Shown here one piece after another: positions 6,701 through 64,000 of a stretch of 64,000 nt of DNA. The DNA is from Euglena gracilis. Taxonomy: Eukaryota. The first letter of the stretch is position 1. Every line of letters begins with the position of its first letter. The stretch lies in NCBI GenBank assembly GCA_039621445.1, contig CP154954.1, positions 41,905,572 to 41,969,571 on the forward strand, given 5' to 3'. Below the pieces are notes generated by a model, which worked only from the letters and a program-made list of their open reading frames with translations, was not told where the DNA came from and did not search any database. The translations under genes and the position numbers were made by a program.

Positions 6701-9700
6701 CGACTTAGAAAACCCCTTTATAGTGACCCCAAAAAGTGGGTCACTGAGACGGGGGGGGGGGGCAGGGTGTTTGGGTGTTTGGGTGTTTGGGTGGTGGGGT
6801 GAACCCTGCGTTTTAAAGAAAAAACCCCTGATAGGAACTGACTCGTTTTCAAAGAGTGACCAAATTTTATTTTTTGAAAGTCGAAAGTGACCCCTCCCCC
6901 CTGGGTCATTCGAAGTGCCGAAGGTTTTTTTTTTGGGTCCACACGCAAGGGTACCCGCTTAGAGGCCCCCCCTCGGGTTTTCCTCAAAATAGTAAGCTTC
7001 TAATTGGGGGGGGGGTCAGTTTCCTGGGGGTGCGAGGCAGGCTGAACCCTCGGGGGTTTGGGGGGGATGGGTCTCTGAGTTTCTGGATTGCCTAAATAGG
7101 CAGGCTCGCCCCCCCCCCCCAGTTGTGGGCCAAAATTCGCCCCAAAATGGGGCTTTTCTCAGCTTCCGCCGCCGAAGGCTCCGGAGCGCCTTGACCGCGG
7201 GCCCAGGCAGTTTTGGCGACGTGCACAGGGCGGGGGATCGGACCTGGGGGTAGTGCCTGCCCAGGCGCCCAGGCTCCGGGGCAGACATTCATTCAGTGTG
7301 GTACACCAAGGTTGTCATTTTGTGGTTCACGGTGGACACCAAAAAAATATTTGTGGTTCACATCTGGACACCAAAAAAATTTCCCACCTCCTGCCGACAT
7401 TTGCATCATTATTTTTTTTCTAAACAGCAATGAAGCAATCCTCTTTGAACATGTTTGCCCAAATGAAAGCGAAGCAAAATCAAAGGAAATGTCTGGCCTT
7501 GCCCGAAATATGGCCGATTTACGGCCCAAAACAGTGCGGCCAACTGGCGACTTAGCCGTTTTTCGGCCCTGTTTAGGGTAAAAAAAATCAAATTTTCTAA
7601 AATTTCTCGAAAATGGTGGGGAGTCAAAGGAAACGTCCGGCGACCTGAGTTGGCCCTTTGAAGCTCTGTCTAAGCGTATTTTGATTTCCCTGCAAATCTC
7701 TGCCCAGCCAATTTTGGCCATTTTGTACATTTTTGGTCTGTTTTGATTTAGCCGTTTTAGGCCATTTTTGGGTTAAAAGGGGCGAAAAAAATCGGGAAAA
7801 AATCGAAAAAAGAATTTGCCCGAAATGATGTTTCCCGGACCCAGAAGAACTGTTTTTGAGCCGAAAATAAGCGTTTTCCCACCCGCCCCCCCCCCCAGAA
7901 TGGCCAAGATCAGAAGATGGGACCCCTCCCCAATAATGATATTGCCCCCCCCAGTTGAACCCCTCCCAATTATTTTATTCTCACAAAATAATTTACACTT
8001 CAGATGCCCAGATATATCTCCCCTGCCATTTTTCTGCGAAAGAAATCAGGTGACGTGGATACTTTAGCTCCGGAACAGGCTGTTTTTTTTAGTCGGGTGC
8101 CGACCCCGCCACAGGGGGGGGTGCCTGCCTGGGCAGGCACTCCAAGGCACTCCCGATCCGAATCCCCCCAGTAGGGCACACGGCCAAAAGTGCCCTAGCA
8201 CAGACCCTGGAGCCAAAGGTGCCGGGGAGCCAAAAATGGCCTGTTTTCAAAGGAATGTGCCTGGTCGCAGGCCGAAATCCGACCCCGGGGGGGGGTAGTG
8301 CCTGCCTGGGCAGGCACCCCAAGGCGCTCCGGACCCCCCCCTCCCCCCGGAGGTTGGTAAATACCAGCCTGCTCCGGAAATGGCATGTTTTGACAAATTG
8401 ATTGGTTTGCTTGGAATGCTGATAGATAGATTGGAATGCTGAAATACCACCGATGTGCCAAAGATGGAGGGAGGGCGATCTACCTTGTTGCATGAGGATG
8501 CCGGTACACAAAACCTGGAGGATCCCGAGGAATCTGATTTGTGATTGTTTGTAATTGGAGTTACCTTGAGTCAAATCCCATTGGATGACCAACAAAAAAT
8601 TCTCACCGTCTGTACTGAAAAAAAGTTGGAAAGTGCCCAAGGGATCAAACGTCGTTTCCCGTTCATTCCGGCCGAATGGCTGCGTTTCGGGGCACGGCCT
8701 CCGCCCAGGGAAGGGTCGAAGGGGCCTGGCCCAGTCCGACGTGCCGTACAGCCACCTGCTGCCCCTCGAGCAGACCACCGCTGAGGTGGCGCCGCCCTCG
8801 TTTCAGGCTCGCCCTATCCGTTGGCCAGCTCGGTGCAACCCACTATTTGGTCACAGCTTTGCCATTACTTTCAGCCCCTCCCCGGCAGCCAGGGACAGCG
8901 CCTCGCGCCGAGATGACCGGGCCCCGCCCCGCCGATACGTTCAACGCGGGGCTGTTCTTCGTGCCTGCGTCGCCGGCCAGCATCGCGGCGTTCGAGTGGA
9001 TGATCGCCGCGCAAGGGCCCTTCCTGCCCCTCAGGGGACTGCCCCTTCTTGGCTGTCCTGTCTCTAAATCAGCTGTGTGACGGTGCCCCAACCTGAACGT
9101 GTGCTGCGTGCCCCAGGGTCCTGTTTAACCAGCGAGCAGGTTTTTTCAGCCTGGTTCCCTTCCTGGTTGCCTGCTCCGAGAGCACACAAACGGTACCAGC
9201 CCTTTTGCAGGTGCCAAAATTGGCATGTGATGAGCAAAGGACCGGTCGAAAGTCGACTACCCAGCTGAAGTTCTGGGTCTCAAATCAAATCAAACAAAAC
9301 CAAACCAAATCTTTACATTAATTTCTAACTATTTGCGGCTCTTTCTCTTCTTCTGTTTTCTTTGCCTGGGTCGCTCTGCGGAGTCAGCAAAGAGGTAGCG
9401 CCCAATTGACGGGCCTCATGTCGCACGTGACAGGCGCATGCCAGCACATTTGCGCGCATGCCTGAACCCACAACTTGCACTTCTTCCTTCACCGGCACCG
9501 TTGAAAGACCCCTGGGCAAACAGTTTTCCCGATGAAGTTCAGCTGATGTTGTTGATTTAGAAACGCCCTGGCCTTGGGGTCTGCACCAAGCACCTATAGC
9601 TAATATGGCCTAAAATGGCCTAAAATGGCCTAAATCGCCTAAAATGGGAAAAATTCTGTTCAAGCATATTTTGAAGGCAATTAAACAATTTAAACAACAT

Positions 9701-12700
9701 CCTTGCATTTCCAAATTATGATGAACAAAAAAGTGTTATCATCTCGCCGCCTTTCAGGTGGCAATCTCAAAGTTCGACTCATTTTGTTGGCCCAATCAAT
9801 AATAAAAAAAGTGTTATCATCTCGCTGCCCTTTGGGGTGCAAACTCAAAATTGACTTATTTTGTGACTTCTAAACAAATCAAATGTCATTGAAGAAGAAA
9901 TGGTGTGATTGTCATTACGTTGAAATTAGACGGTATGAGTTGTTTCTTCTGATGAACCAAACTGAACAAGGTTGTTTCCACGTTGATTTGCTTTTGCAAA
10001 CAAAGTGAAGCGTCCAGATTAGTGAAGTGTGGTATTACACTTTGAACACAATACAAGGTTTGAGGATTTCCTCAGTTTCCATGTGCTTATTTTTTTCTGG
10101 GTTTCAACAGCTTTGTCCAAAAGTTTCAGCAAGTTTGTCCAAATGGTGTCAATAACCCTGTCCACTCATTGTATTACTAAATAAGAGAAGGTTTGCACAC
10201 GTCATGATGCAGTTTTCGGGACAATAATGTCGCAAAATTATGATTTTCAGAACCCCCACCTATACCTAAAATGGGTGGCCTAAAATGGCCTAAAATGGTC
10301 TTAAATGGCCGAAAATGGCCTAAAATGGCCGAAAATGGCCGAAAATGGGGGAATTTTTGGGCTTGACTATAGGCTATAGATAGGTGCTTGGTCTGCACCA
10401 TCTTGCCCAGGGTCGGAGTGAGATTCTGTGTTAACCCTCCACCAACCCTCTTGCGCGGCAAGGCTCAGGGGGCTGATCTGCCAAAACAAGAACCAAAATT
10501 GAAGGGAGAAAAATGTGGCAGAAGCACAACCGCCAGGGTCGTCGGCCCGACGATGTTATTCATCGCCTCGCACGCCCAGTGCCTTTTCTTTTGCCACCCC
10601 TCCCCCTTTCCTGTGTTGGCCGACCCCTTTCGCTGCGAGGCCCATCCATCTCCAGTACCATGTTCCGAAAATACGAAAACTGGTATCATTTTAGAATCAA
10701 AATCAAATTTTGCTTCCATGTACGTTTTTGGGGGTTGGGTCGTTGGAAAAAAAAGTGGGCGGGCCGGCCCCGGGAAGGGAAGGGGCCGTGCCGGGGAGGT
10801 GGATGCCGGCCGGGTCACCACTGATGACCAGCCGCTCTACAACCGCGCCTTCTGCGCCGCCCCCCGCCGGCCACCGTCCCCAGCCCCCCCCCCCCCCCCA
10901 GGAGGGGGCTTGTTAATAATGGGGTTTTGGGGGTAGAGAACCTACCGACCTGCTGGTTCCGGGGGCTGGTCGCACTTTTTGGCGCGCCTGTTTTCTTGGA
11001 TTTGACGCTTCCCCGATAATCATGCCCGCTGCCCCGATATATACCGAAAAATTGCCAAAATTTTGCTATTCTGGGGTGTTGACCAGCAGTGCTTCTGACA
11101 ATAATGGGGTTTTGGGGGTGAGGAAACCAGCTGACCTGGTCCCGGGGGGGCTGGTCGCACACCCCCCCCCCCATTTCCTGGCCTGGCCTGGGTTGGTGGG
11201 TGGGTGGGTGGGTGGGTGCGGGGGCCGCCCCACGGCCGGCGCAACGCGACGACGTGCCACTTCACCGCCCCGGCGTCCACGGCGTCGCTGGAGGTCCGGT
11301 TCTGGCCGCAGATGATGGCGGCGAACGGCGCGGTGGACGGCCGGGGGTCCGCGGTGCCGCGGGCCCCATTTTGGTCCGTCCGGCCGGGCACCCCCCCCCC
11401 CTCCCCGGCAGGGTGTCGCCAGGGCATGTCCTCACTGGCCTGGAAGGTACCCCCCCCCTTGTCTAAGCACCAACCCCCCCCCGGTTCTTACCCATCTTTT
11501 TAAAGGTCATCGTTCCGGGAGGTTTATTTTGTGTGCATTTTTAAGGGAAATTTCTCAAAAAATTCGAAATTTCTGCAACTTCTGAGACCTGATTTGGTGA
11601 GGTATTGTTGATTTCTGCCTCCAAATTTGTGTAAGTTCAACAGCGGACCTCCAAAATAAGGGGAATTTTTTCTTTTCGGCGCGAAGCGAAGCCGGATTTT
11701 TTTTTTGCAGTTAAATTTTTGCTCCTTGTCTAAGCACCACCCCCTGGTTCTTACCCATATTTTGGCAAAATAAGCCCCCCGGTTCTTACCCATCTTTTCC
11801 GGTGCTTAGACAAGGGGGGGGGAGGTATGTCAGCATGCAAATCCACATGCACAAAAAGTGCACACCGACAACGAAGAGAGGGGAGGGGGAGGGAGGGAGG
11901 GAGGCACACAGCCGAGTTTATCTCTGGGGGAACTATAACACCGAAACGTGGCACCGCCCCCCCCCCCCCGCCCCCAATGTGTTGGCCTCTGGTTTGTGTT
12001 ATTATAAGCCAGTTTGCCAACTGTGATGCCATGAGGGCTGAAGCCAGCTTCGCGGCCGGGGGAGCAGGAACTGCCAAGCGGAGTTGCGCGTCGATGCCTT
12101 AACAGATCAACTGCCCCTTGGACACAGACCTTGCCCCTGTCCAATGGCTGCCCTGTGGCCAGTGATCACCCCTGATCAACGGACCGGAGGGGCCCCTGAC
12201 CCCCTGTCGCGAGAGAGGGGGCGGAGGCTGGGGTGTTTGTGGGGACCCCCCGCGGCCCAGCGCGCGCCGCCGGGGCCATCCAGCGGCGGGGCTTCTTCTC
12301 CTTTGCCTACCGGGGGCTGCGGCCGGTGCTGCCGGGGCAGATGTCGCTGCACAACAACTGCATCAAGGCCGGGCTTGCATTTCGGAAGACCCCCCCCCCC
12401 GGTCTTCACCGGGTGTCCGCGGCAGAACCTTCCCGGGGGCCTGGGAATGGGTCCAGCCAATAAAAAAGTCTGGTGTTTTTTTTTAAAAAAAACAATGGGC
12501 AAAATGGTAGATCATTGGTCGTTGTAGGTTTTTTGTGGCAAAAACTGAAAATATGTGCAGGGCTCCAGAAATCAGGGGAAATGGTCAGAACGATCCGAAA
12601 ATGAGTTCAAGGCCTGGTTTTTTTTGTTGATCCTTTTGCAACTCCCCCTCTTGCCCCCCCCCCCCGAGGTCCCTTGGCAGGTGGCCTCCTGTGGGTCTAA

Positions 12701-14515: not shown

Positions 14516-24992
<10,477 letters not shown>

Positions 24993-26152: not shown

Positions 26153-26648
26153 CCCCCCCCCCCCCCGGGCAATTGACGCCCCCGGGTAATTGACGCCCCT
26201 GGGCAATTGACGCCCCCGGGCAATTGTCACCCCTGGCTGTGCCGGCCAATTTGTCACCCCGGGAAATTGTCACCCCCCTCCGTGCTGCCCAATTTGTCAC
26301 CCCCCACAGAAGACGTTTGTGAACTTTCTTTTCGCCGGCACGACTCAATTGATCTTCTATTTCGCTACAACGTGCTGAGAAATGTCACATACCAAATGCT
26401 CTGCACAATATCACAACCATAGCTGCATTTTTGCATGTTCACTGGTGTTTCAGATGGTGTTCTTGGTCATTTGGATTAAATGTGGTCTACATGGGTAGGC
26501 AATTGACGCCCCCGGGCAATTGACGCCCCCGGGCAATTGTCACCCCCCTCTGTGCCGGCCAAATTGTCACCCTGGGAAATTGTCACCCCCCTCCGTGCTG
26601 CCCGATTTGTCGCGCGACAATTGCCCGGGGGGGGGGGGGCGGTTATGG
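26153..26648. mobile_element. MITE family with 17-bp AATTGACGCCCCCGGGC subterminal repeats
   Basis: CCCGGGCAATTG/CAATTGCCCGGG inverted ends; collinear with copies at ~3445 and ~62465. Confidence 0.85.
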
Positions 26649-28095: not shown

Positions 28096-56111
<28,016 letters not shown>

Positions 56112-56332: not shown

Positions 56333-57306
56333 CAGACGTTTAGAGTGTGCACCAAAAAACTTTTCTGTGTATCACATGTTCACCAAGAGGAATTTTGTGT
56401 TCACCTGTGTTCACAAATTTTTATGTTCGCATGTGTTCACCAAGTATTTTTGTGTTCACCAAAAAAGGTGTTGAGAAGAATATCAAAGTTGTTTTTGTCC
56501 CTCGGAAAGGGGATAGGCATTTGTTCGGGCGTGAATGGAAAAATGAGATTTGTTGCATTTTGACCCGGGTCTTGGAAAGAGGAACAACTGTGGCGGCATT
56601 GCAAGAGCGTTTTTTGCTTGCTTGAGCCCAATACTTTGGGGTTGGCAAATGGCACGCCGTCCCGGAATGTGAATAAGAATGTTTGCGACGTTTCGAAGCA
56701 ACACTCCAGGCAGAAGATTTTCAAACATTCGCTGACACATGCTAAGAAAAGCCTTAAAAAAAGCTCAACCCCCGGCGTCATCGTACAAGTGGGACCTATC
56801 CCCTAATGTTGGTATTTTTTCCCCTGATTCTGGCATTCCACTGGGATATTTTTGGACGTTTCCGGTGCGCGGAGCGTGCCCAGGTGTAGCCTGTCACAGG
56901 GGGTGTAGCCTGTCACAGGGATTTGGGGTTGGGTTTGGGATTTGGTGCAGGTCAGGAATTTTAGGCCAAATAAGGCCGAATTCTCAAAAATTGGACCTAA
57001 AATTGGGCCTTGATTTTCGGGTTTATTCAGGTTGAAAGTGAAGGCGGCCGACATCATAACCCCTGTGAGTAACCCCAATTTTTCCTCACTCCGCATGCAG
57101 GAAACCCTGGACAGGTTCTGACAAGTGGAATCGATCACGGTCCACCCCCTGTCACACATTTGGATCCCGCAGGGGATCAGTTTGAGGCTGCCTTATACTT
57201 TTTCTTTTTTTCTTGTTCACCCAAATTTCTCAGTGTGTTCACCTGTGTTCACCAAAAAAAAAATGTGTTCACCAGCGTCTTTGTGAACACACTAAGTGGA
57301 TGTCTG
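56333..57306. mobile_element. Older hAT-type element with TGTTCACC subterminal repeats, intergenic
   Basis: CAGACGTT/GATGTCTG ends; TSD GCCGGGAC/GCTGGAAC (6/8). Confidence 0.65.
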
Positions 57307-57854
57307 GCTGGAACGTGTGCACACCACGGAGGCTTACAAGCAAGCCCTGGAGCCATCCTCCTCCTTTTTTTTCCATTTGAGGAGTTCATAGCTCCAACAG
57401 GCAAGTTTGAAGGCAGTTGCATTTTTTTCATCAAATCACTGACCCCAAGGATTGAGTTCCTTCGGATAATTTGATGAAAATGCACTCATCCAACTCAAGT
57501 ATCCTCCAAAGGTGTAACCCCCCCCGCCAAATATAAGCAACTCTTTGGCCAATTTTCGGCCGACACCCAAATTTCCTACTCCCAAAGTATACGCGACCTC
57601 GGACTGGGCAATATGAAGGAAATGGCATTAAAGCGGCAGAATCAGCAAATTCCAAACACAAGCAACCCCCAAATAACCGGTTGCTTCTATTTGGGGGGTC
57701 TACCCCAACTGGATTGGATCGTGGGAATGGATCTGATCTTTGCTGAGCTGCGGCAAGGCCGCACTCCATGATTTCTGTCCAACTGTCTCGCAGGACAAGC
57801 CTGCAGTCCAAACCTTTAGGACCAGGGGTTGGGTGTCTGCGTGTTCCCGCCCGT

Positions 57855-57869
57855 CTGTGCTCTTTCCAG
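57855..57869 (+). promoter_or_regulatory. Putative spliced-leader trans-splice acceptor
   Basis: TCTTTCCAG|GGCC, the same 13-mer as upstream of the WD40 gene. Confidence 0.5.
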
Positions 57870-57907
57870 GGCCCTTGCCATGCCGTCCTGATGTGACCGG
57901 CTCACAT

Positions 57908-58093
57908 ATGTCACTCGCCTCCGTGGTGCAGGGGAAGCCCTGCCACTGCTGCGGGATTTTTGTGGACCTTCCTTTCACATGTCACAAGTGTGGGGAGAGC
58001 CTGTGTGAGGTGTGTGTGTGTCGCGCGCGCGCGTGTGTGTGTGTGTGCGTGCGGATGTGCATGTGTGGGCACACATTTGCATATGTGTACGTG

Positions 58094-58130
<37 letters not shown>

Positions 58131-61100
58131 AAGCGAGCGTGCATGCGTGCATGTGTGCGCACATGTGTGCGATGTGTACTCCTAATTCCACCAGCCCTGT
58201 GGCCGAAGGGATCACGTCTTGGAGAGGGAATGCACACGGCTTGGGCAACCGTCAAGTGCATCATTTGTGTCACCCCATGCGTCATTTCAGTCCCATCGCC
58301 TGCAGGACCATCGCCTCTTCGCCAGCCACAACTGCCGCGGCCACTACGACAAGGTGGTGCCGGAGTGCCCGCTGTGCGGCCAGTTGGTCCCCACGGCCAG
58401 GGGCGGATAGCCAACCTTTGGTCTCACACACAAACATGTCCAGCGCGAATGAGGGGGGCAGCCGAAGGCTCCACTCGCAGACCTTGGAATGGGAAGGCCC
58501 CCCTGTATGTGCAACTGGCAACCGTTTAGAATGGACGCAGCTCACACATTTTAAGATATTCCACCATGCATTTGCTGCCAAAGCAGTGGCACCACCACTG
58601 GCAACTCCCCCCCTCCCCACACACATGTTGACGAACCCCCCACGCCGGCCAGAGCGTCTCTCCAGAACCCCCTCTGTGTTGTCTGCCTTGTCACCTCCCA
58701 TTTTCGCTGTCAAAGAGGAGTTCCAAAACAATAGAAACACTCAAAAATGAGTTTTTTTCCCCTCTTTGGGAGGTGGACGGGTTTTGTTTATCATGACCCA
58801 ACCTGTTGACCCGGGTGGTAACAGCATCCCCTTTGACATCCCATTGATTGACAAAAATCGACCCCCCAGGCAATTTTTAACGCTGGGTCATTTCCACTTC
58901 ATCCCTGAAATGAGAAGCCCAACGACACACAAGAACATTGCCCTATTTTCTCCCCTAGTTGTTTGCAAATGCATGCCCCGCGGCAAACGGGCCTTATCTT
59001 GAAAAGAAGCTTTGACCCCACCCCAGCACCCCAGGGAGGTCCAGCCCGCCAGCAGCCTTTTTCCAGCCAGCAGCCTTTTTTCCAGCCCTGCACCTCCCTC
59101 CCCCCCCACCCATCAGCGAGTTTTATTTATTTCCAGCCACCCTTTGGGCCGCTGGACGACAACAGATTTTTGGCATTTGTGGGTGCAACAACAATCGGCC
59201 GAAAAACGGGTCAAAAATGGGCGAAAATGGGTCGGAAAACGGCTGTCCGGGGCCCCGGGGCAAATTTTGGATAAAAAAAACGTTGTTTTTTTGCATTTGC
59301 CAAAATTGGCATTTTTTTGACATTTTTGCAGTTTCTATTTTTGGTACCCGTTTCGACACCCCCAGTCAGGCCCTGTTCCAGCCCTGGGGCGTGGCCATGG
59401 GGGGTCAACCAGCAGCCTTTTTCCAGCCAGCCCAAGTTTTTCATCCTCTGAGCTAGACCCCCCCGGGGGGGGGTCGTTGAAAAACACCCTGGTGGCAAGT
59501 CTGTTGTTGTTGTTTTGGGGGCAGATTTTTCAAAACGACCATTGGGCCCGGAGCGCTGTGCAAGCCGAAGCTGAAGGATCCCAGGGTCCACTGGCTGGCA
59601 GTCTCAAGCTGGAAAGTCACTGGCCACTTCACCCTGGAGATGGGGGGGGGTCTGGTCCCCCCCGACAGGAAAAAAAACAGTATCTTCCGTCGCTTTGCGC
59701 CAATGTGGAGACGAGGTTATGGTGTATATTTCTTTTGTATTTTCATCCCAAATAGCTTCCCAACGTTCCAAAAATGGACATCTCTGGCATGTTTTGGGTG
59801 TAACAAAAGGAAATTCTGGTGCTTCGTGCCCCCAAGAACCCTGGGTCATGGGGGAGGAATGTTGGCCAGAATTGTCAGTTTGCATGGTGTTTTATTCGCT
59901 CCTTCCTGCGGCTCACAACCAAGATCCAAACCACGCCGTGTCCGTCCACATGGAAAAGGTACGACGGCTTGCCAGTGTGCGCTTGCCCAGTAGAGCCATG
60001 GTGGAGGGCCCAGGACCCCCGTGAGCCCAATTGTGATGGTGAGTGCGTGCCCGTCTCGCCAAACTGTTTTTCCAGTTTATGTGCAGCGCCACCGTGCATG
60101 CCCCCCCCCCCACCTAGGGCTGCCCGCGGGAAGGGAAGACCGCGTCCCCGCAGCCCCAGCGCCTCAATTTCTGCGCCTTCCGGGACTGCACCGCCAACGA
60201 GCACGTCCTCATCCGCTGCAAAGCATGCGGCAACTCCTTCTGCGTCCCACACCGCCTGCAGGTCAGCTGCCTCTCCCACACCTCCCCCCCCCCAGACAGG
60301 GAGGTCCATAGAGGACAAGTTTTTTTTAAAACTCAGGACTGTCTCTTAAGGACCGCCCTTGGCCAAAGGGCCGGCCAAGTTGGCAGTCGAACGGGGTCAA
60401 AAATGAAAAGTGAGAAACATTTTTCATACGTCCAGATATAGTTCTGAGCCTCGTACACAGTACCTCCCCCCCCTTGTGACAAATGCATTGTTGGTATGAA
60501 ATGATTTTAAGACAATTTTACCCCCCACCTATAGGAAAAAATGCTCGAAAATGGCCGAAAATGGCCGAAAATGGCCGAAAATGGCCGAAAATGGCCGAAA
60601 ATGGCCGAAAATGGCCGAAAATTGCAAAAATCGGGGGGTCAACTATAGGTGCTTGCCCTTGTCCAACGACCGGCCTTGTCCAACGACCCCCCCGGTCAGT
60701 AGCGATCTTTTTCCAGGTGATATTTTTTCCAGACGTTTGTGTTCTGTCAGAGTATAGACCACACAATTGCAAAGTTTTTTTTGTCTAGTTTCCTGCAAAT
60801 CAGCAACTTTTGGCCTTTTTTTGGCCCCTTTTTTTGGCCAGTTTGGACCACTTTTGGCCACTTTTGCCCATTTTGGGCTGCATTTGGCAATTCAGACCAC
60901 TTTGTTTGGATGCATTTTTGCTTCCAAACATTTTTGCTTTATACCAATTTTCGGCTGCTTTTGGCTATTTTTGCACATTTGTGGCCATTTTAGCCACTTC
61001 TATTGCTTTTATCCACTTCTTGCCCCTTTTTGGCCACTTTTGGCCATTTTGTGGTCACTTGCACAGATTCAGTGACTGCAATTTTGTAATCGATGGGCGC

Positions 61101-63187
61101 TTTTGCATGCATTTTTCTCTCATTCAGTCATTTTTAGTTGTACCTGATTCTTGTCGCGCGGTGCCACGGCTCATGCGGTGCCGCACGGTGCACACGGTGC
61201 CGCACGCGATGCGAAACACGCGGTGCATGCGGTGCAGAAGCATCCCCCTTGGGGCGAAGCGGGAGAAGAAAATGTTGACCCCGGTCTTGTCTAACGACCA
61301 CCCCCGCCCGGTCAGTAGCGATATTTGGACAAATTAGCGACCCCCCCCCCCGGTCAGTAGCGATATTCAGCAGTCGTTGGACAGGCGGGGGGGGTACTAT
61401 GCTGTTTGGGATTCCTGAAGGGCCCACTGTCTGAGAAGGGGAATGTGCGCTCTACAGAGCAGAATAATATTTTGGTTTCCTCTCCACAGGTGGCATTTTT
61501 CTTATTTTTCTTTACACAGTGACCAATTTTTGGCTTCACCCCCAGTCCAAAGGACTTTTGTCCGCACAGAACAGTACCACGACCGACAGGGTCGGCGTTT
61601 TGGCCATCGGACGGACACTCAAATCACCCGCTTGCAGACCGCCCGCGTCACACTGTCGTGGTTTGGGAAGTCTGGACTGAGGCATCGCTCTACTCCCTGT
61701 CTCTCTCTCTTGTCCGTTGAAGTGGGCGTAGGGACAAAGTCCGCGGATTGGGGGGGTGCTGGGCTGACCTGCTCCGCAGGAGGAGCGTCCCCCCCTCCCC
61801 CTTGTCAGGAGGACCACGACTGCCCCCGGCTGCGGGAGGAGCAGCAGCGGAGGGCCCGGCGGCCAGGGCGGGCCGGGGACGCCCGGCAACGCTACAGGTG
61901 GGCGGGGGGTCCCCCTCCCGTCCCACGGTTGGGGTCTGGTTGGTGCTGCCTCCCCCTCCCCGCCTCCGGGGTCTTCCCGGACCGCCCTGCCGGAGGCTGC
62001 AGGCCCAGGCCAAGAAGGAGGCGGTAGAGCCGGCGGGGCGAGTTGGCCTGCTGGGCAGGCACCGACAGTTGACCAGCCCCGACCGTTGCCGACTACCCAG
62101 AGAATGGCAACTGGAAAAAGTGACAAATTAATACGGATATATAGCGTAGTAATGACAATGATAATGATCCAACAAGAATTATAAAATAATAGCAATAGCA
62201 ATGGCAAAGATAACAATGATATCAGTAATAATCAGAATAAATAACACCTGCAACTCGGAAGGCCGGCAAGTGCTATGAATGTCTATGGATGCTTCACCTC
62301 CAGCAAAAACAGCTAAAATTGGCCAAACATGGCCAACTCCATCAAGAATACATGCTCAAAAATGCACGAAAATTGCCACACTGACCCAAAATAACCCTGA
62401 GAAAAATTGAAGTGTGTTGTGTGGTCATGGTATATGATTATTATCACTGTATTATATTGTTTTCCATTCCCGTGCCCCCCCCCCCCGACAATTGACGTCC
62501 CCGGGCAATTGACGCCCCCAGGCAATTGACGCCCCCGGGCAATTGTCACCCCTGGCTGTGCCAGCCAATTTGTCACCCCAGGAAATTTTCGCCCCCTTCC
62601 GTGCTGCCCAATTTGTCACCCCCATTTGCAGTATTGCTCTGTGAACTTTCTTTTCGCCGCATGACTCGATTGATCTTCTACTTCGCTGCAACGCGCTGAG
62701 AATTTTCGCATACCAAACGCTCTGCACAATATCACGACCATAGATTATTTTTCCTGCATTCACTTGTGTTTCAGATGGTGTTCTTGGTCATTTAGTTCAA
62801 ATGTGGCTGACATTGGTGGGCAATTGACGCCCCCGGGCAATTAACGCCCCCGGGTAATTGTCATCCCTCTCTCTCTGTGCCGGCCAAATTGTCACCCCGG
62901 GAATTTGTCACCCCCCTCCGTGCTGCCCAATTTGTCGCGCGACAATTGCCCCGGGGGGGGGGGGGCGGGTATGACTTATTTTTATTTTATTTTTATTTCT
63001 ATGACTTATTTTTTATTTTCTTTTACTGGCATGCACCCTAACTGCAGCCAAGTATTTGCCGGCCAGGGCCGACCACGCCGACCAGAGCACCAAAATGACA
63101 AGTGACCGTTGGTGCCTGCTGCTGGGGGCCCAGCGGTTCGCCAACACCCCGCAGACTGCCATCGGCTCCACCAGCGTGGCCTCCGAG
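57908..63187 (+). CDS. AN1-type zinc-finger protein (ZFAND2/AIRAP- or ZFAND1/Cuz1-like), 3'-partial
   Basis: Exons 57908-58009, 58306-58394, 59910-59958, 60118-60261, 61809-61897, 61996-62052, 63124-63187 join in frame: GKPCHCC..DLPFTCHKCGESLCEDHRLFASHNC, VPECPLCGQLVP..DPNHAVSVHMEKGC, CAFRDC..LIRCKACGNSFCVPHRLQEDHDC. No stop found; the last modelled exon ends at a GT donor. Confidence 0.88.
58395..59909 (+). other. Nonconventional intron (GG...GC)
   Basis: AGGGGCGGATA/TATTCGCTCCT 11-bp stem at +5/-7 (same register); flanks CCCACGGC and CCTGCGGC (6/8); removal gives LVPT|AHNQDPN. Confidence 0.78.
60461..61396. mobile_element. TA-flanked element containing an (AAAATGGCCG)n tract
   Basis: TACCTCCCCCCCCTTGT ... 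ACAGGCGGGGGGGGTA ends; internal TGTCCAACGACC motifs. Confidence 0.62.
62053..63123 (+). other. Nonconventional intron with perfect 8-bp flanking duplication CTGCTGGG
   Basis: CTGCTGGG at 62048-62055 and 63119-63126; inverted ends CAGGCACCGACAGT/ACCGTTGGTGCCTG; removal gives RVGLL|GAQRFAN. Confidence 0.85.
62465..62973. mobile_element. MITE (family of 26153-26648) nested in intron 62053-63123
   Basis: Collinear with 26153-26648 over its full length. Confidence 0.85.
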
Positions 63188-64000
63188 GTGCCTCCAGTCC
63201 CCCCCCCCCCTGCTGTCTGCCCTTCTTCTTGTGATGATGCATTTTCTGCGGTATTTTCCGCATTTCTCAACCATTGAGCATTGTGCTCTTCTCAGGTTGG
63301 TGCTTTCTCAATTGGGGTATGATTTTGTTTATTTTCATTGTGTCAAAAATTCCAGATTCCCCCAGGTGCCACCGCTGGAAAATTGTGAAAACCACCGAGT
63401 GGAGTTCCAACACGTCACGGGCAGTTCAAAAACCTGGACATCAACCCTCCAAAGATAAAAATTGCGTCGGTGTGCACAAATATGCGCACCGACGCAATAC
63501 AGCTCCAGTGCGAGTTTGGCCGCATAAGTGGATGTTTTCCACTACCCCACAGAATCTCATTGGAATGAAATGGACTCTGCCCACGCAACTTCTGTCTCTG
63601 CATTGCCTCCATAGATTTTGGCTGGGAGTGATCTTTCACGGTCAAAAAAAAATGCATGAAATGACAACGATCAACGCCTTGCGGGCAAAAAAGAACAGAA
63701 CGCTGTCACGACATGCTGTCTGGCCTGCTGAACGAACTCGTCGACGTGTGAAACCATCGGGACTCACCCCCCCCTCCCCAAAGAGAGAAATTTACTAAAA
63801 GGACACAAAACTCCACTTTTACACCCCCCCCTTCCTGTGTGACAACTACCACCTGGTGGCGTTCTGGAGGTGGGGTGGCAGGTTTACCTCTTTGCTTGCT
63901 TTCTGAACCTATACTGCGGTGTGGAGGTTTTTGAAGTTGGTTACAAAAGGAGTGGATTTTCACATTCAACAAATGAAAAAATATAAAATAATAGGTTGAA

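What the first reader, a model, noticed from the sequence alone, without database searches (positions are those of the whole stretch)
62048..63126. Clearest case: CAG...CTG inverted ends, perfect CTGCTGGG duplication, in-frame removal
Seen: CTGCTGGG|CAGGCACCGACAGT ... ACCGTTGGTGCCTG|CTGCTGGG. Its ends follow the same design as the free MITEs (CAGGC...GCCTG with 8-bp TSD, as at 8076 and 25765), yet it sits between two coding exons and fits the +4/-6 intron rule exactly. A different MITE later inserted inside it.
Basis: partly seen in the sequence, partly recalled or inferred. Interest (0 to 1): 0.85.

Follow-up and report, generated by a model that had tools for sequence, protein, structure and literature searches.

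The report
MITE-shaped euglenid nonconventional intron
A 1,071-base stretch shaped like a small DNA transposon plus one copy of its 8-base target duplication is cut exactly out of the messenger RNA, as in the already described "nonconventional" introns of Euglena-like algae, so it is a very clean example of a known oddity.

Summary
CTGCTGGG (62048-62055) | CAGGCACC…GGTGCCTG (62056-63118) | CTGCTGGG (63119-63126) is in the window.

RNA-seq shows that transcripts skip exactly 1,071 nt, which is the element plus one duplicate. The joint has 17 reads in X21, 22 in X24 and one contig in X15. The DNA run X1 shows no such joint.

None of the 9 equivalent registers has GT/GC-AG ends. Register 62053-63123 gives 3 nt + CAG … CTG + 5 nt, pyrimidine|purine at both junctions and a purine starting the next exon. 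That is the published code of euglenid nonconventional introns.

The host is a + strand AN1 zinc-finger gene whose frame stays open across the joint. Two more nonconventional introns in it use the same register, with decayed 8-bp duplications (7/8 and 6/8). Three other introns are GT-AG.

A transposon (MITE) origin is a published hypothesis. What this adds is a pristine 8-bp duplication, look-alike elements nearby, and the arithmetic 3 + 5 = 8. The organism (probably Euglena) was not identified directly. This is a new member of a known kind, of moderate interest.

The parts
62048..62055 (+). Left copy of the 8-bp direct repeat (target-site duplication) CTGCTGGG. By the rule, its first 5 nt stay in the mRNA.
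62056..63118 (+). Outer transposon-shaped element, 1,063 bp, CAGGCACC…GGTGCCTG
   Evidence: Its 5' part (to 62486) lies on one DNA contig of X1 with the upstream exons, at depth 47.8.
62056..62069 (+). 5' terminal inverted repeat CAGGCACCGACAGT. CAG sits at intron positions +4..+6.
63105..63118 (+). 3' terminal inverted repeat ACCGTTGGTGCCTG. CTG sits at intron positions -8..-6.
63119..63126 (+). Right copy of the 8-bp direct repeat CTGCTGGG. By the rule, its last 3 nt stay in the mRNA.
62053..63123 (+). The nonconventional intron in the register set by the published code: 3 nt + CAG … CTG + 5 nt, 1,071 nt in all. The mRNA alone cannot tell this register from the 8 others.
   Evidence: Joint 62047->63119 with 8 shared letters; registers
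62465..62973 (.). Nested high-copy repeat with poly-C/poly-G ends, GGGCAATTGACGCCCCC 17-mers and an internal duplication of about 319 bp. The left edge is uncertain (62465-62475). No duplication of the target was found.
   Evidence: Summed DNA contig depth is 158,000-347,000, against about 45-95 in the flanks.
61995..62052 (+). Upstream exon (…AQAKKEAVEPAGRVGLL)
63124..63188 (+). Downstream exon (GAQRFANTPQTAIGSTSVASE). The next exon lies outside the window. A GT donor is possible at 63188-63189.
   Evidence: loose end at 63188: 12 reads in X21, 18 in X24
61861..61994 (+). Second nonconventional intron (134 nt). It is the 126-bp element CAGGGCGG…CCGCCCTG (61864-61989) plus a duplication CCGGCGGC/CCGGAGGC that matches at 7/8.
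   Evidence: X15 contig loose end at 61863
58395..59909 (+). Third nonconventional intron (1,515 nt). CAG at +4..+6 faces CTT at -8..-6. The duplication remnant CCCACGGC/CCTGCGGC matches at 6/8.
   Evidence: 32 reads in X21, 11 in X24, 1 contig in X15
60262..61808 (+). Conventional GT-AG intron of the same gene, with a C-rich tract before CAG. The other conventional ones are 58010-58305 and 59959-60117.
60118..60261 (+). Exon encoding an AN1 zinc finger. It identifies the host gene.
   Evidence: PF01428, E 6e-07, 29.9 bits against a cut-off of 27.9
37558..37663 (+). Diverged relative of the outer element's 3' end. It stops at the same …GTGCCTG terminus. No matching 5' end was found.
   Evidence: 74% over 109 nt, E 1.3e-10

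Best explanation
This is a nonconventional (non-spliceosomal-type) intron of the kind described in euglenids. Its DNA is a small terminal-inverted-repeat transposon that inserted into a coding exon of an AN1 zinc-finger gene and duplicated 8 bp of target.

In the pre-mRNA the two inverted ends pair (CAGGCACC… with …GGTGCCTG). The cuts fall 3 nt before CAG and 5 nt after CTG. Because 3 + 5 = 8 equals the length of the duplication, the removed piece is the element plus exactly one duplicate, and the mRNA regains its pre-insertion sequence and frame.

Shown here:
- the anatomy of the element;
- the exact RNA joint;
- the absence of GT/GC-AG ends;
- the fit to the published cis code;
- the open frame across the joint.

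Inferred:
- the origin by transposition;
- the exact cut register;
- the pairing in vivo;
- the euglenid identity of the organism.

The trans-acting machinery is unknown in the literature. The papers I saw suggest it is not the usual spliceosome and report circular products.
For: **RNA joint.**
- One search reports joint 62047->63119, skipping 1,071 nt, with ends CT..TG and 8 letters that fit either side.
- Support: X21 has 10+7 reads from 16 start places. X24 has 2+20 reads from 17 start places. X15 has 1 contig at depth 322.5. DNA run X1 has 0 contigs.
- X1 does carry an uninterrupted contig over 61541-62486.

**No retained intron.**
- In the unique part of the intron (bin 62148-62381), RNA depth is 0 in both X21 and X24.
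- The flanking bins hold about 2-7.

**Strand.** In X24 the first mates lie almost all on the - strand, which fits a + strand RNA.

**Borders.**
- None of the 9 registers begins GT/GC and ends AG.
- Register 62053-63123 reads GGG-CAG…CTG-CTGCT, with T|G at both junctions and G as the first exon letter.

**End pairing.**
- The duplex of the intron ends is -28.5 kcal/mol, and 0 of 300 shuffles reach it (z -4.2).
- The two other nonconventional introns give 0/300 and 2/300.
- The two conventional introns tested give 138/300 and 274/300.

**Coding.**
- One frame is open through all six joined exons.
- It holds a zf-AN1 domain.

**Published code.**
- CAG/CTG sit at +4..+6 / -8..-6, with Y|R junctions (passages of PMC4770533; review PMC11282704).
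- A 3-bp and a 5-bp spacer and a purine at the acceptor exon were shown by knock-in mutagenesis (passages of PMC12501133).

**Duplication at the exact boundary.**
- The three RNA-proven nonconventional introns match at 8/8, 7/8 and 6/8.
- Window-wide, the true register is enriched over shifted registers.
Against: The full-length minimum-energy fold of the 1,111-nt stretch does not pair the two ends with each other. There, 62053-62063 pair locally and the upstream exon pairs with 63061-63088. Only the isolated-ends duplex supports the helix.

The third letter of the downstream exon is G, not the C preferred in the published model. That preference held in only 30 of 55 published introns.

The RNA runs and the DNA run come from different samples, so splicing and DNA presence were not shown in one individual. 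X15 comes closest: it has a low-depth (4.67) contig inside the intron beside the spliced contig at depth 322.5. But its 'RNA' label is a guess.

The outer element is at single-copy depth in X1. Family membership therefore rests on its termini and on one 74% relative of its 3' end.

No empty site, no transposase and no taxonomic assignment were obtained.
Confidence: 0.9

Rival explanations
1. The joined transcripts come from an allele, a paralogue or somatically excised DNA that lacks the element (an empty site). On this view there is no RNA-level removal.
For: The RNA runs (X21, X24) and the DNA run (X1) come from different samples. Contigs drop rare variants. A perfect 8-bp duplication fits a young, possibly polymorphic insertion.
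Against: X1 DNA shows no joint. It carries the element's 5' part at the same depth (47.8) as the neighbouring exon contigs (44.7-49.3).

Two other introns of the same gene, with decayed duplications, are removed in the same register.

X15 holds both intron-interior sequence (depth 4.67) and the spliced form (depth 322.5).

The literature documents RNA-level removal of such introns.
Confidence: 0.04
2. The joint is a reverse-transcriptase template-switching artefact between the two 8-nt direct repeats, which the hairpin brings together.
For: Direct repeats next to a stable stem are the classic setting for such artefacts. That this setting favours the artefact is general knowledge, recalled.
Against: The joint is seen in three libraries of three studies.

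No reads lie in the intron's unique part, so the joined form is essentially the only form.

The frame is preserved and continues into a further exon.

In Euglena the same design was functionally validated by phenotype, and not only by cDNA.
Confidence: 0.02
3. It is a spliceosomal 'introner' like those of Micromonas or dinoflagellates. Those are removed by the ordinary spliceosome, with one splice site supplied by the element and the other by the duplication.
For: It has the same overall logic: a transposon with inverted ends and a duplication becomes an intron (review passages).
Against: No GT/GC…AG pair exists in any of the 9 registers compatible with the mRNA. The conventional introns of the same gene do have GT-AG and a C-rich tract. 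So two intron types coexist here, as in Euglena.
Confidence: 0.03

Closest known systems
Nonconventional introns of euglenids (Euglena gracilis, E. agilis). Sources: Milanowski et al. 2014 and 2016; Guminska et al. 2018; PNAS 2025, PMC12501133.
   Same: - Non-GT/AG borders.
- CAG at +4..+6 pairing with CTG at -8..-6, extended to CAGG/CCTG.
- 3-nt and 5-nt spacers.
- Y|R junctions and a purine starting the next exon.
- Direct repeats at the junctions.
- Coexistence with GT-AG introns in one gene.
- Length within the reported range.
- An 8-nt junction repeat was reported for one recently gained E. agilis gapC intron.
   Different: No difference of kind. This copy has a perfect 8/8 duplication, a nested high-copy repeat, and a G instead of C at exon position +3.

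The link between 3+5 nt and an 8-bp duplication, and look-alike elements with 8-bp duplications elsewhere in the same DNA, did not appear in the passages I read.
Non-canonical 'introner' introns of the parasitic dinoflagellate Amoebophrya (Farhat et al. 2021, PMC7789003)
   Same: Non-canonical borders, inverted repeats at the ends, and direct repeats at the junctions. These are read as invasive transposon-like elements (review passage; search listing).
   Different: The direct repeats are given as 3-5 nt there, not 8, and the inverted-repeat motifs are strain-specific. The lineage is different. I saw this paper only as a listing and through the review.
Non-canonical MITE-derived introns of the tunicate Fritillaria borealis (Henriet et al. 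2019)
   Same: Transposon-derived introns without GT-AG, removed precisely (review passage).
   Different: There the introns are removed by a modified U2 spliceosome. No CAG/CTG helix rule is described. I saw this only through the review.
Spliceosomal introner elements (Micromonas, Aureococcus, Polarella and other dinoflagellates)
   Same: DNA transposons with inverted ends and a duplication that are born as introns.
   Different: Those use GT/GC-AG, with one site supplied by the duplication (3 nt in Micromonas). Here no canonical site exists.
hAT-type non-autonomous DNA transposons (8-bp target duplication)
   Same: An 8-bp duplication, short imperfect inverted ends starting CA(G/A), and no long ORF. 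The hAT features are recalled, not taken from any call.
   Different: The recalled terminal consensus YARNG is met at 4 of 5 positions (CAGGC). No transposase was found in the 12 largest ORFs of the window. Other superfamilies also make 8-bp duplications.

Membership tests
Euglenid nonconventional intron | Removed from the RNA although the borders are not GT/GC-AG | tested here: met
   Joint in X21, X24 and X15, none in DNA X1. 0 of 9 registers is canonical.
Euglenid nonconventional intron | Pairing of +4,+5,+6 with -8,-7,-6, usually CAG/CTG | tested here: met
   In register 62053-63123, CAG is at 62056-62058 and CTG at 63116-63118. Position +7/-9 is G/C as well.
Euglenid nonconventional intron | A stable stem that brings the two ends together | tested here: inconclusive
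   The isolated 25-nt ends give -28.5 kcal/mol, reached by 0/300 shuffles. The full-length minimum-energy fold does not pair the ends.
Euglenid nonconventional intron | A 3-nt spacer before CAG and a 5-nt spacer after CTG (PNAS 2025) | tested here: met
   The register is allowed by the mRNA (shift 5 of 0-8). The mRNA cannot exclude the other 8 registers.
Euglenid nonconventional intron | Pyrimidine|purine at both junctions, and a purine at the start of the downstream exon | tested here: met
   T62052|G62053 and T63123|G63124.
Euglenid nonconventional intron | [quoted passage not shown] | tested here: not met
   63126 is G.
Euglenid nonconventional intron | Excised as a full-length circle, after the conventional introns | not testable with these tools
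Known only from the review passage.
Euglenid nonconventional intron | The host is a euglenid | not tested
   No genome is held, organism names are coded, and Rfam gave no hit. The identity is inferred from the intron code and from the C-rich tract + CAG at conventional acceptors.
MITE (non-autonomous terminal-inverted-repeat transposon) | Terminal inverted repeats flanked by a target-site duplication of fixed length | tested here: met
   Inverted repeat 13/15; duplication 8/8; the register is specific.
MITE (non-autonomous terminal-inverted-repeat transposon) | A multi-copy family of similar elements | tested here: inconclusive
   The 5' 430 bp is at single-copy depth in X1. There is one 74% relative of the 3' end. 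The CA(G/A)GCACC terminus is shared with the elements at 9587 and 50316.
MITE (non-autonomous terminal-inverted-repeat transposon) | Evidence of mobility (an empty site in another strain or species) | not tested
   Only one DNA run was laid, and it holds the filled site.
Spliceosomal introner element | GT/GC…AG ends made from the element plus the duplication | tested here: not met

The most novel reading that the evidence does not exclude
The euglenid nonconventional splicing code (3 nt + CAG … CTG + 5 nt) may be the RNA-level mirror of one transposon superfamily that makes 8-bp target duplications. The machinery would measure from the helix of the inverted ends and remove the element plus exactly one duplicate. 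Every insertion of such an element into an exon would then be born as a perfectly neutral intron. The excised circle would carry the element plus a re-formed duplicate (CTGCT+GGG here).

If so, most 'slidable' nonconventional introns should be insertions of identifiable element families whose junction repeats decay from 8/8 with age. A bolder extension is that the RNA circle is itself a propagation intermediate.
Probability: 0.45. Interest if true: 0.6.

Novelty: new member of a known kind. Interest (0 to 1): 0.35.

Why it matters
Nonconventional introns make up most introns in at least one Euglena genome: 71.8% in E. agilis. Their origin is still called unclear (PNAS 2025 discussion), and an open question in PLoS Genet 2018.

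This locus shows the full signature of a cut-and-paste insertion in an exon: inverted ends and a perfect 8-bp duplication. RNA proves that exactly the element plus one duplicate is removed. Two older introns in the same gene show the same duplication in decay.

The match between the experimentally defined spacers (3 + 5 nt) and the 8-bp duplication gives a simple prediction about origin and mechanism that can be tested genome-wide.

It does not reveal a new kind of intron or the removal machinery.

Tried and rejected
- **Whole-genome search:** no genome is held. No family census and no empty-site search were possible.
- **Earlier findings:** closed.
- **Sequencing-run search:** no RNA holder was listed among the indexed runs. 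RNA evidence came from raw-read runs with the same species label and from X15, whose RNA label is a guess.
- **Terminal 11-mer search in the window:** 5 matches against 3.7 expected, so it is uninformative beyond the two ends themselves.
- **Full-length fold of the intron:** the two ends do not pair with each other in the minimum-energy structure.
- **Open-frame test across the other duplication-flanked elements:** in this GC-rich DNA several frames stay open by chance. It cannot tell which other elements are introns.
- **Target duplication of the nested repeat:** none found at boundaries 62465/62973.
- **5' end of the relative at 37.6 kb:** not found.
- **Rfam over the whole window:** no hit.
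- **Pfam on the 12 largest ORFs:** no family, hence no transposase.
The SI Appendix of PMC12501133 (Fig. S3, lengths of junction repeats) is a PDF and cannot be read here. Both may bear on whether the link between the 8-bp duplication and the 3+5 spacers is already documented.
- **First guess:** I first took the window for a dinoflagellate or Amoebophrya. I dropped that once the CAG/CTG +4/-8 rule and the 8-nt (not 3-5 nt) repeats pointed to euglenids.
- **Literature searches for a printed link** between euglenid nonconventional introns and 8-bp duplications or hAT elements: they gave the MITE hypothesis, 'TSD-like' repeats and one 8-nt case. None of the passages I read links the two explicitly.
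Full report
**What is in the sequence**

CTGCTGGG lies at 62048-62055. An element starts with CAGGCACCGACAGT at 62056 and ends with ACCGTTGGTGCCTG at 63118. CTGCTGGG follows again at 63119-63126.

The repeat finder gives arms 62055-62069 and 63105-63119, 15 nt and 87% complementary (I11).

I scanned the whole window for an exact 8-mer repeat bracketing inverted ends of at least 10/12. This gave 17 hits, against 0-1 in 20 mononucleotide shuffles. Seven of the 17 lie in a microsatellite at about 22.3-22.8 kb.

An internal control is stricter. There are 389 CA-starting inverted-repeat pairs outside microsatellites. In the true register the flanking 8-mers match 8/8 in 6 pairs and 7/8 in 4. In ten shifted registers the counts are 0-2 and 0-2.

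**Is it removed from the RNA?**

No genome is held for the window. The run search found DNA holders and RNA runs with the same coded species label. I laid two raw-read RNA runs (X21, X24), one contig run guessed to be RNA (X15) and one DNA contig run (X1) on 57000-64000.

- The joint 62047->63119 skips 1,071 nt, with 8 letters that fit either side.
- X21 supports it with 10+7 reads from 16 start places.
- X24 supports it with 2+20 reads from 17 start places.
- X15 supports it with one contig at depth 322.5.
- X1 (DNA) has no such contig. It carries 61541-62486 on one contig at depth 47.8.
- The unique part of the element (bin 62148-62381) has zero RNA depth in both raw-read runs.
- In X24 nearly all first mates lie on the - strand, which fits a + strand RNA.

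**What kind of intron?**

The 8-nt repeat allows nine equivalent registers. None begins GT or GC and ends AG.

Register 62053-63123 reads GGG-CAGG…CCTG-CTGCT. It has T|G at both junctions and G as the first letter of the next exon.

This is the published model of euglenid nonconventional introns:
- Positions +4,+5,+6 pair with -8,-7,-6, mostly as CAG/CTG and often as CAGG/CCTG. Junctions are pyrimidine|purine. (Passages of PMC4770533; review PMC11282704.)
- A strict 3-bp spacer before CAG, a preferred 5-bp spacer after CTG, and a purine at the acceptor exon. These were shown by knock-in mutagenesis and by synthetic introns in Euglena. (Passages and section 5 of PMC12501133.)

The one deviation is G instead of C at the third exon position. 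That is a weak feature, present in 30 of 55 published introns.

**Pairing of the ends**

The 25-nt ends form a duplex of -28.5 kcal/mol, and 0 of 300 shuffles reach it. The two other nonconventional introns give 0/300 and 2/300. The two conventional introns tested give 138/300 and 274/300.

Against this, the minimum-energy fold of the whole 1.1-kb stretch does not pair the two ends. The helix is therefore supported only locally.

**The gene**

The RNA joints define a + strand gene with these introns:

| Intron | Type |
|---|---|
| 58010-58305 | conventional GT-AG |
| 58395-59909 | nonconventional |
| 59959-60117 | conventional GT-AG |
| 60262-61808 | conventional GT-AG |
| 61861-61994 | nonconventional |
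| 62053-63123 | nonconventional (this finding) |

A further exon lies beyond the window.

The 61863->61998 joint rests on a single X15 contig whose 20 loose letters match 61998-62017.

The joined exons keep one frame open. It encodes an AN1 zinc finger: PF01428, E 6e-07. There is also a weak ZFAND2-type hit, below the cut-off.

The conventional acceptors have a C-rich tract before CAG. This is described for E. gracilis.

**The duplication in all three nonconventional introns**

Take CAG…CTG (or CTT) as the element ends. The 8 nt outside them then compare as follows:

| Element | Flanking 8-mers | Match |
|---|---|---|
| 62056-63118 | CTGCTGGG / CTGCTGGG | 8/8 |
| 61864-61989 | CCGGCGGC / CCGGAGGC | 7/8 |
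| 58398-59904 | CCCACGGC / CCTGCGGC | 6/8 |

In the two decayed cases the mRNA keeps the left copy's letters at the mismatched positions (3-5). This agrees with a cut 3 nt before CAG.

The removed piece is always the element plus 8 nt. The experimentally defined spacers, 3 + 5 nt, add up to the duplication length. An insertion of this transposon type into an exon is therefore erased exactly from the message.

**What is inside the element, and its relatives**

62475-62973 is 87.6% identical over 502 nt to 26156-26647. Its summed DNA contig depth is thousands of times that of the flanks. That is a crude measure, not a copy number.

It has imperfect inverted ends (I3). I found no duplication of its target, so 'a different MITE inserted later' is plausible but only partly shown.

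The outer element's last ~105 nt resemble 37558-37663 (74%, E 1.3e-10), and that stretch stops at the same GTGCCTG terminus.

The terminus CA(G/A)GCACC recurs in the duplication-flanked elements at 9587-10390 and 50316-52019. It also occurs at an element end at 60655.

The outer element itself is at single-copy depth.

No transposase domain was found in the 12 largest ORFs. Rfam gave nothing.

**Comparison with what is known**

The finding passes 5 of the 6 features of euglenid nonconventional introns that I could test. It fails only a weak one, and the stem feature is inconclusive.

It is not a spliceosomal introner, because it has no GT/GC-AG. It differs from the Amoebophrya introns, whose junction repeats are given as 3-5 nt.

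A MITE origin has been proposed since 2014 and is still called a hypothesis in 2018 and 2025. One recently gained E. agilis gapC intron was reported with 8-nt junction repeats. The authors read that as double-strand-break repair.

In the main text of PMC12501133 the word 'duplication' does not occur. In seven literature searches and in the passages I read, I did not see the 3+5 = 8 link or element families with 8-bp duplications described for Euglena. Supplements that might hold it could not be read.

The hAT attribution (8-bp duplication, CA(G/A) termini) rests on recall, and no call tested it.

**Verdict**

It is a clean, RNA-proven new member of a known intron class, in what is most likely a Euglena genome (the organism was not identified directly).

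Its value is as direct evidence for the transposon origin of these introns, and for a simple explanation of the spacer rule. Interest 0.35.

Noticed in passing
window 61861-61994: A second nonconventional intron (134 nt). It is a 126-bp element CAGGGCGG…CCGCCCTG with a 7/8 duplication. The support is one X15 contig only.
   Followed up: partly
window 58395-59909: A third nonconventional intron (1,515 nt; 32 reads in X21, 11 in X24). CAG faces CTT, and the duplication remnant matches at 6/8. Its interior holds very high-depth repeats (58872-59573).
   Followed up: partly
window 8121-8140 and 8298-8317 (variant at about 2611-2630): GTGCCTG-CCTGGG-CAGGCAC occurs inside the CAGGCTGTTTTT-type elements. 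It looks like the 3' and 5' termini of a CAGGCAC-type element placed tail to head, 6 nt apart. There are 2 exact matches against 0.01 expected, but both lie in one duplicated unit. Unexplained.
   Followed up: partly
window 60538-60655; 9587-10390: A high-copy element family with ends CAAGCACCTATAG…CTATAGGTGCTTG and AAAATGGCCG tandem units. One copy sits inside a conventional intron, where summed DNA depth is about 330,000. Another copy has a perfect duplication, GTCTGCAC.
   Followed up: partly
window 50316-52019: A 1.7-kb element with 12/12 inverted ends (CAAGCACCTCTG) and a perfect duplication, CTGGTGGG. It is filled with 10-, 18- and 20-nt tandem arrays. Whether it is an intron was not tested.
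   Followed up: no
window 19733-20199 and 14765-14875: Two more elements with duplications (7/8 and 8/8) lie near frames with WD40-like wording (15.6 kb and 19.6 kb). They are possible further nonconventional introns. Pfam gave no hit on the frames tested.
   Followed up: no
window 62503-62617 versus 62818-62936: The nested repeat carries an internal duplication of about 319 bp. Many DNA contigs of X1 join 62550-62552 to 62873, so most genomic copies lack this duplication.
   Followed up: no
window 63167, 58330, 57919-57979: Single-letter differences between the RNA reads and the window appear in part of the reads. For example, 63167 T>C is seen in 9 of 17 reads in X21 and 11 of 19 in X24. These are alleles or strain differences and give no evidence of editing.
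   Followed up: no
window 21.8-24.9 kb, 29.9-32.1 kb, 45.7-46.0 kb: Long microsatellites: (TACA/TGCA)n and (CA)n, the longest about 300 bp. They inflate naive repeat and ORF scans.
   Followed up: no
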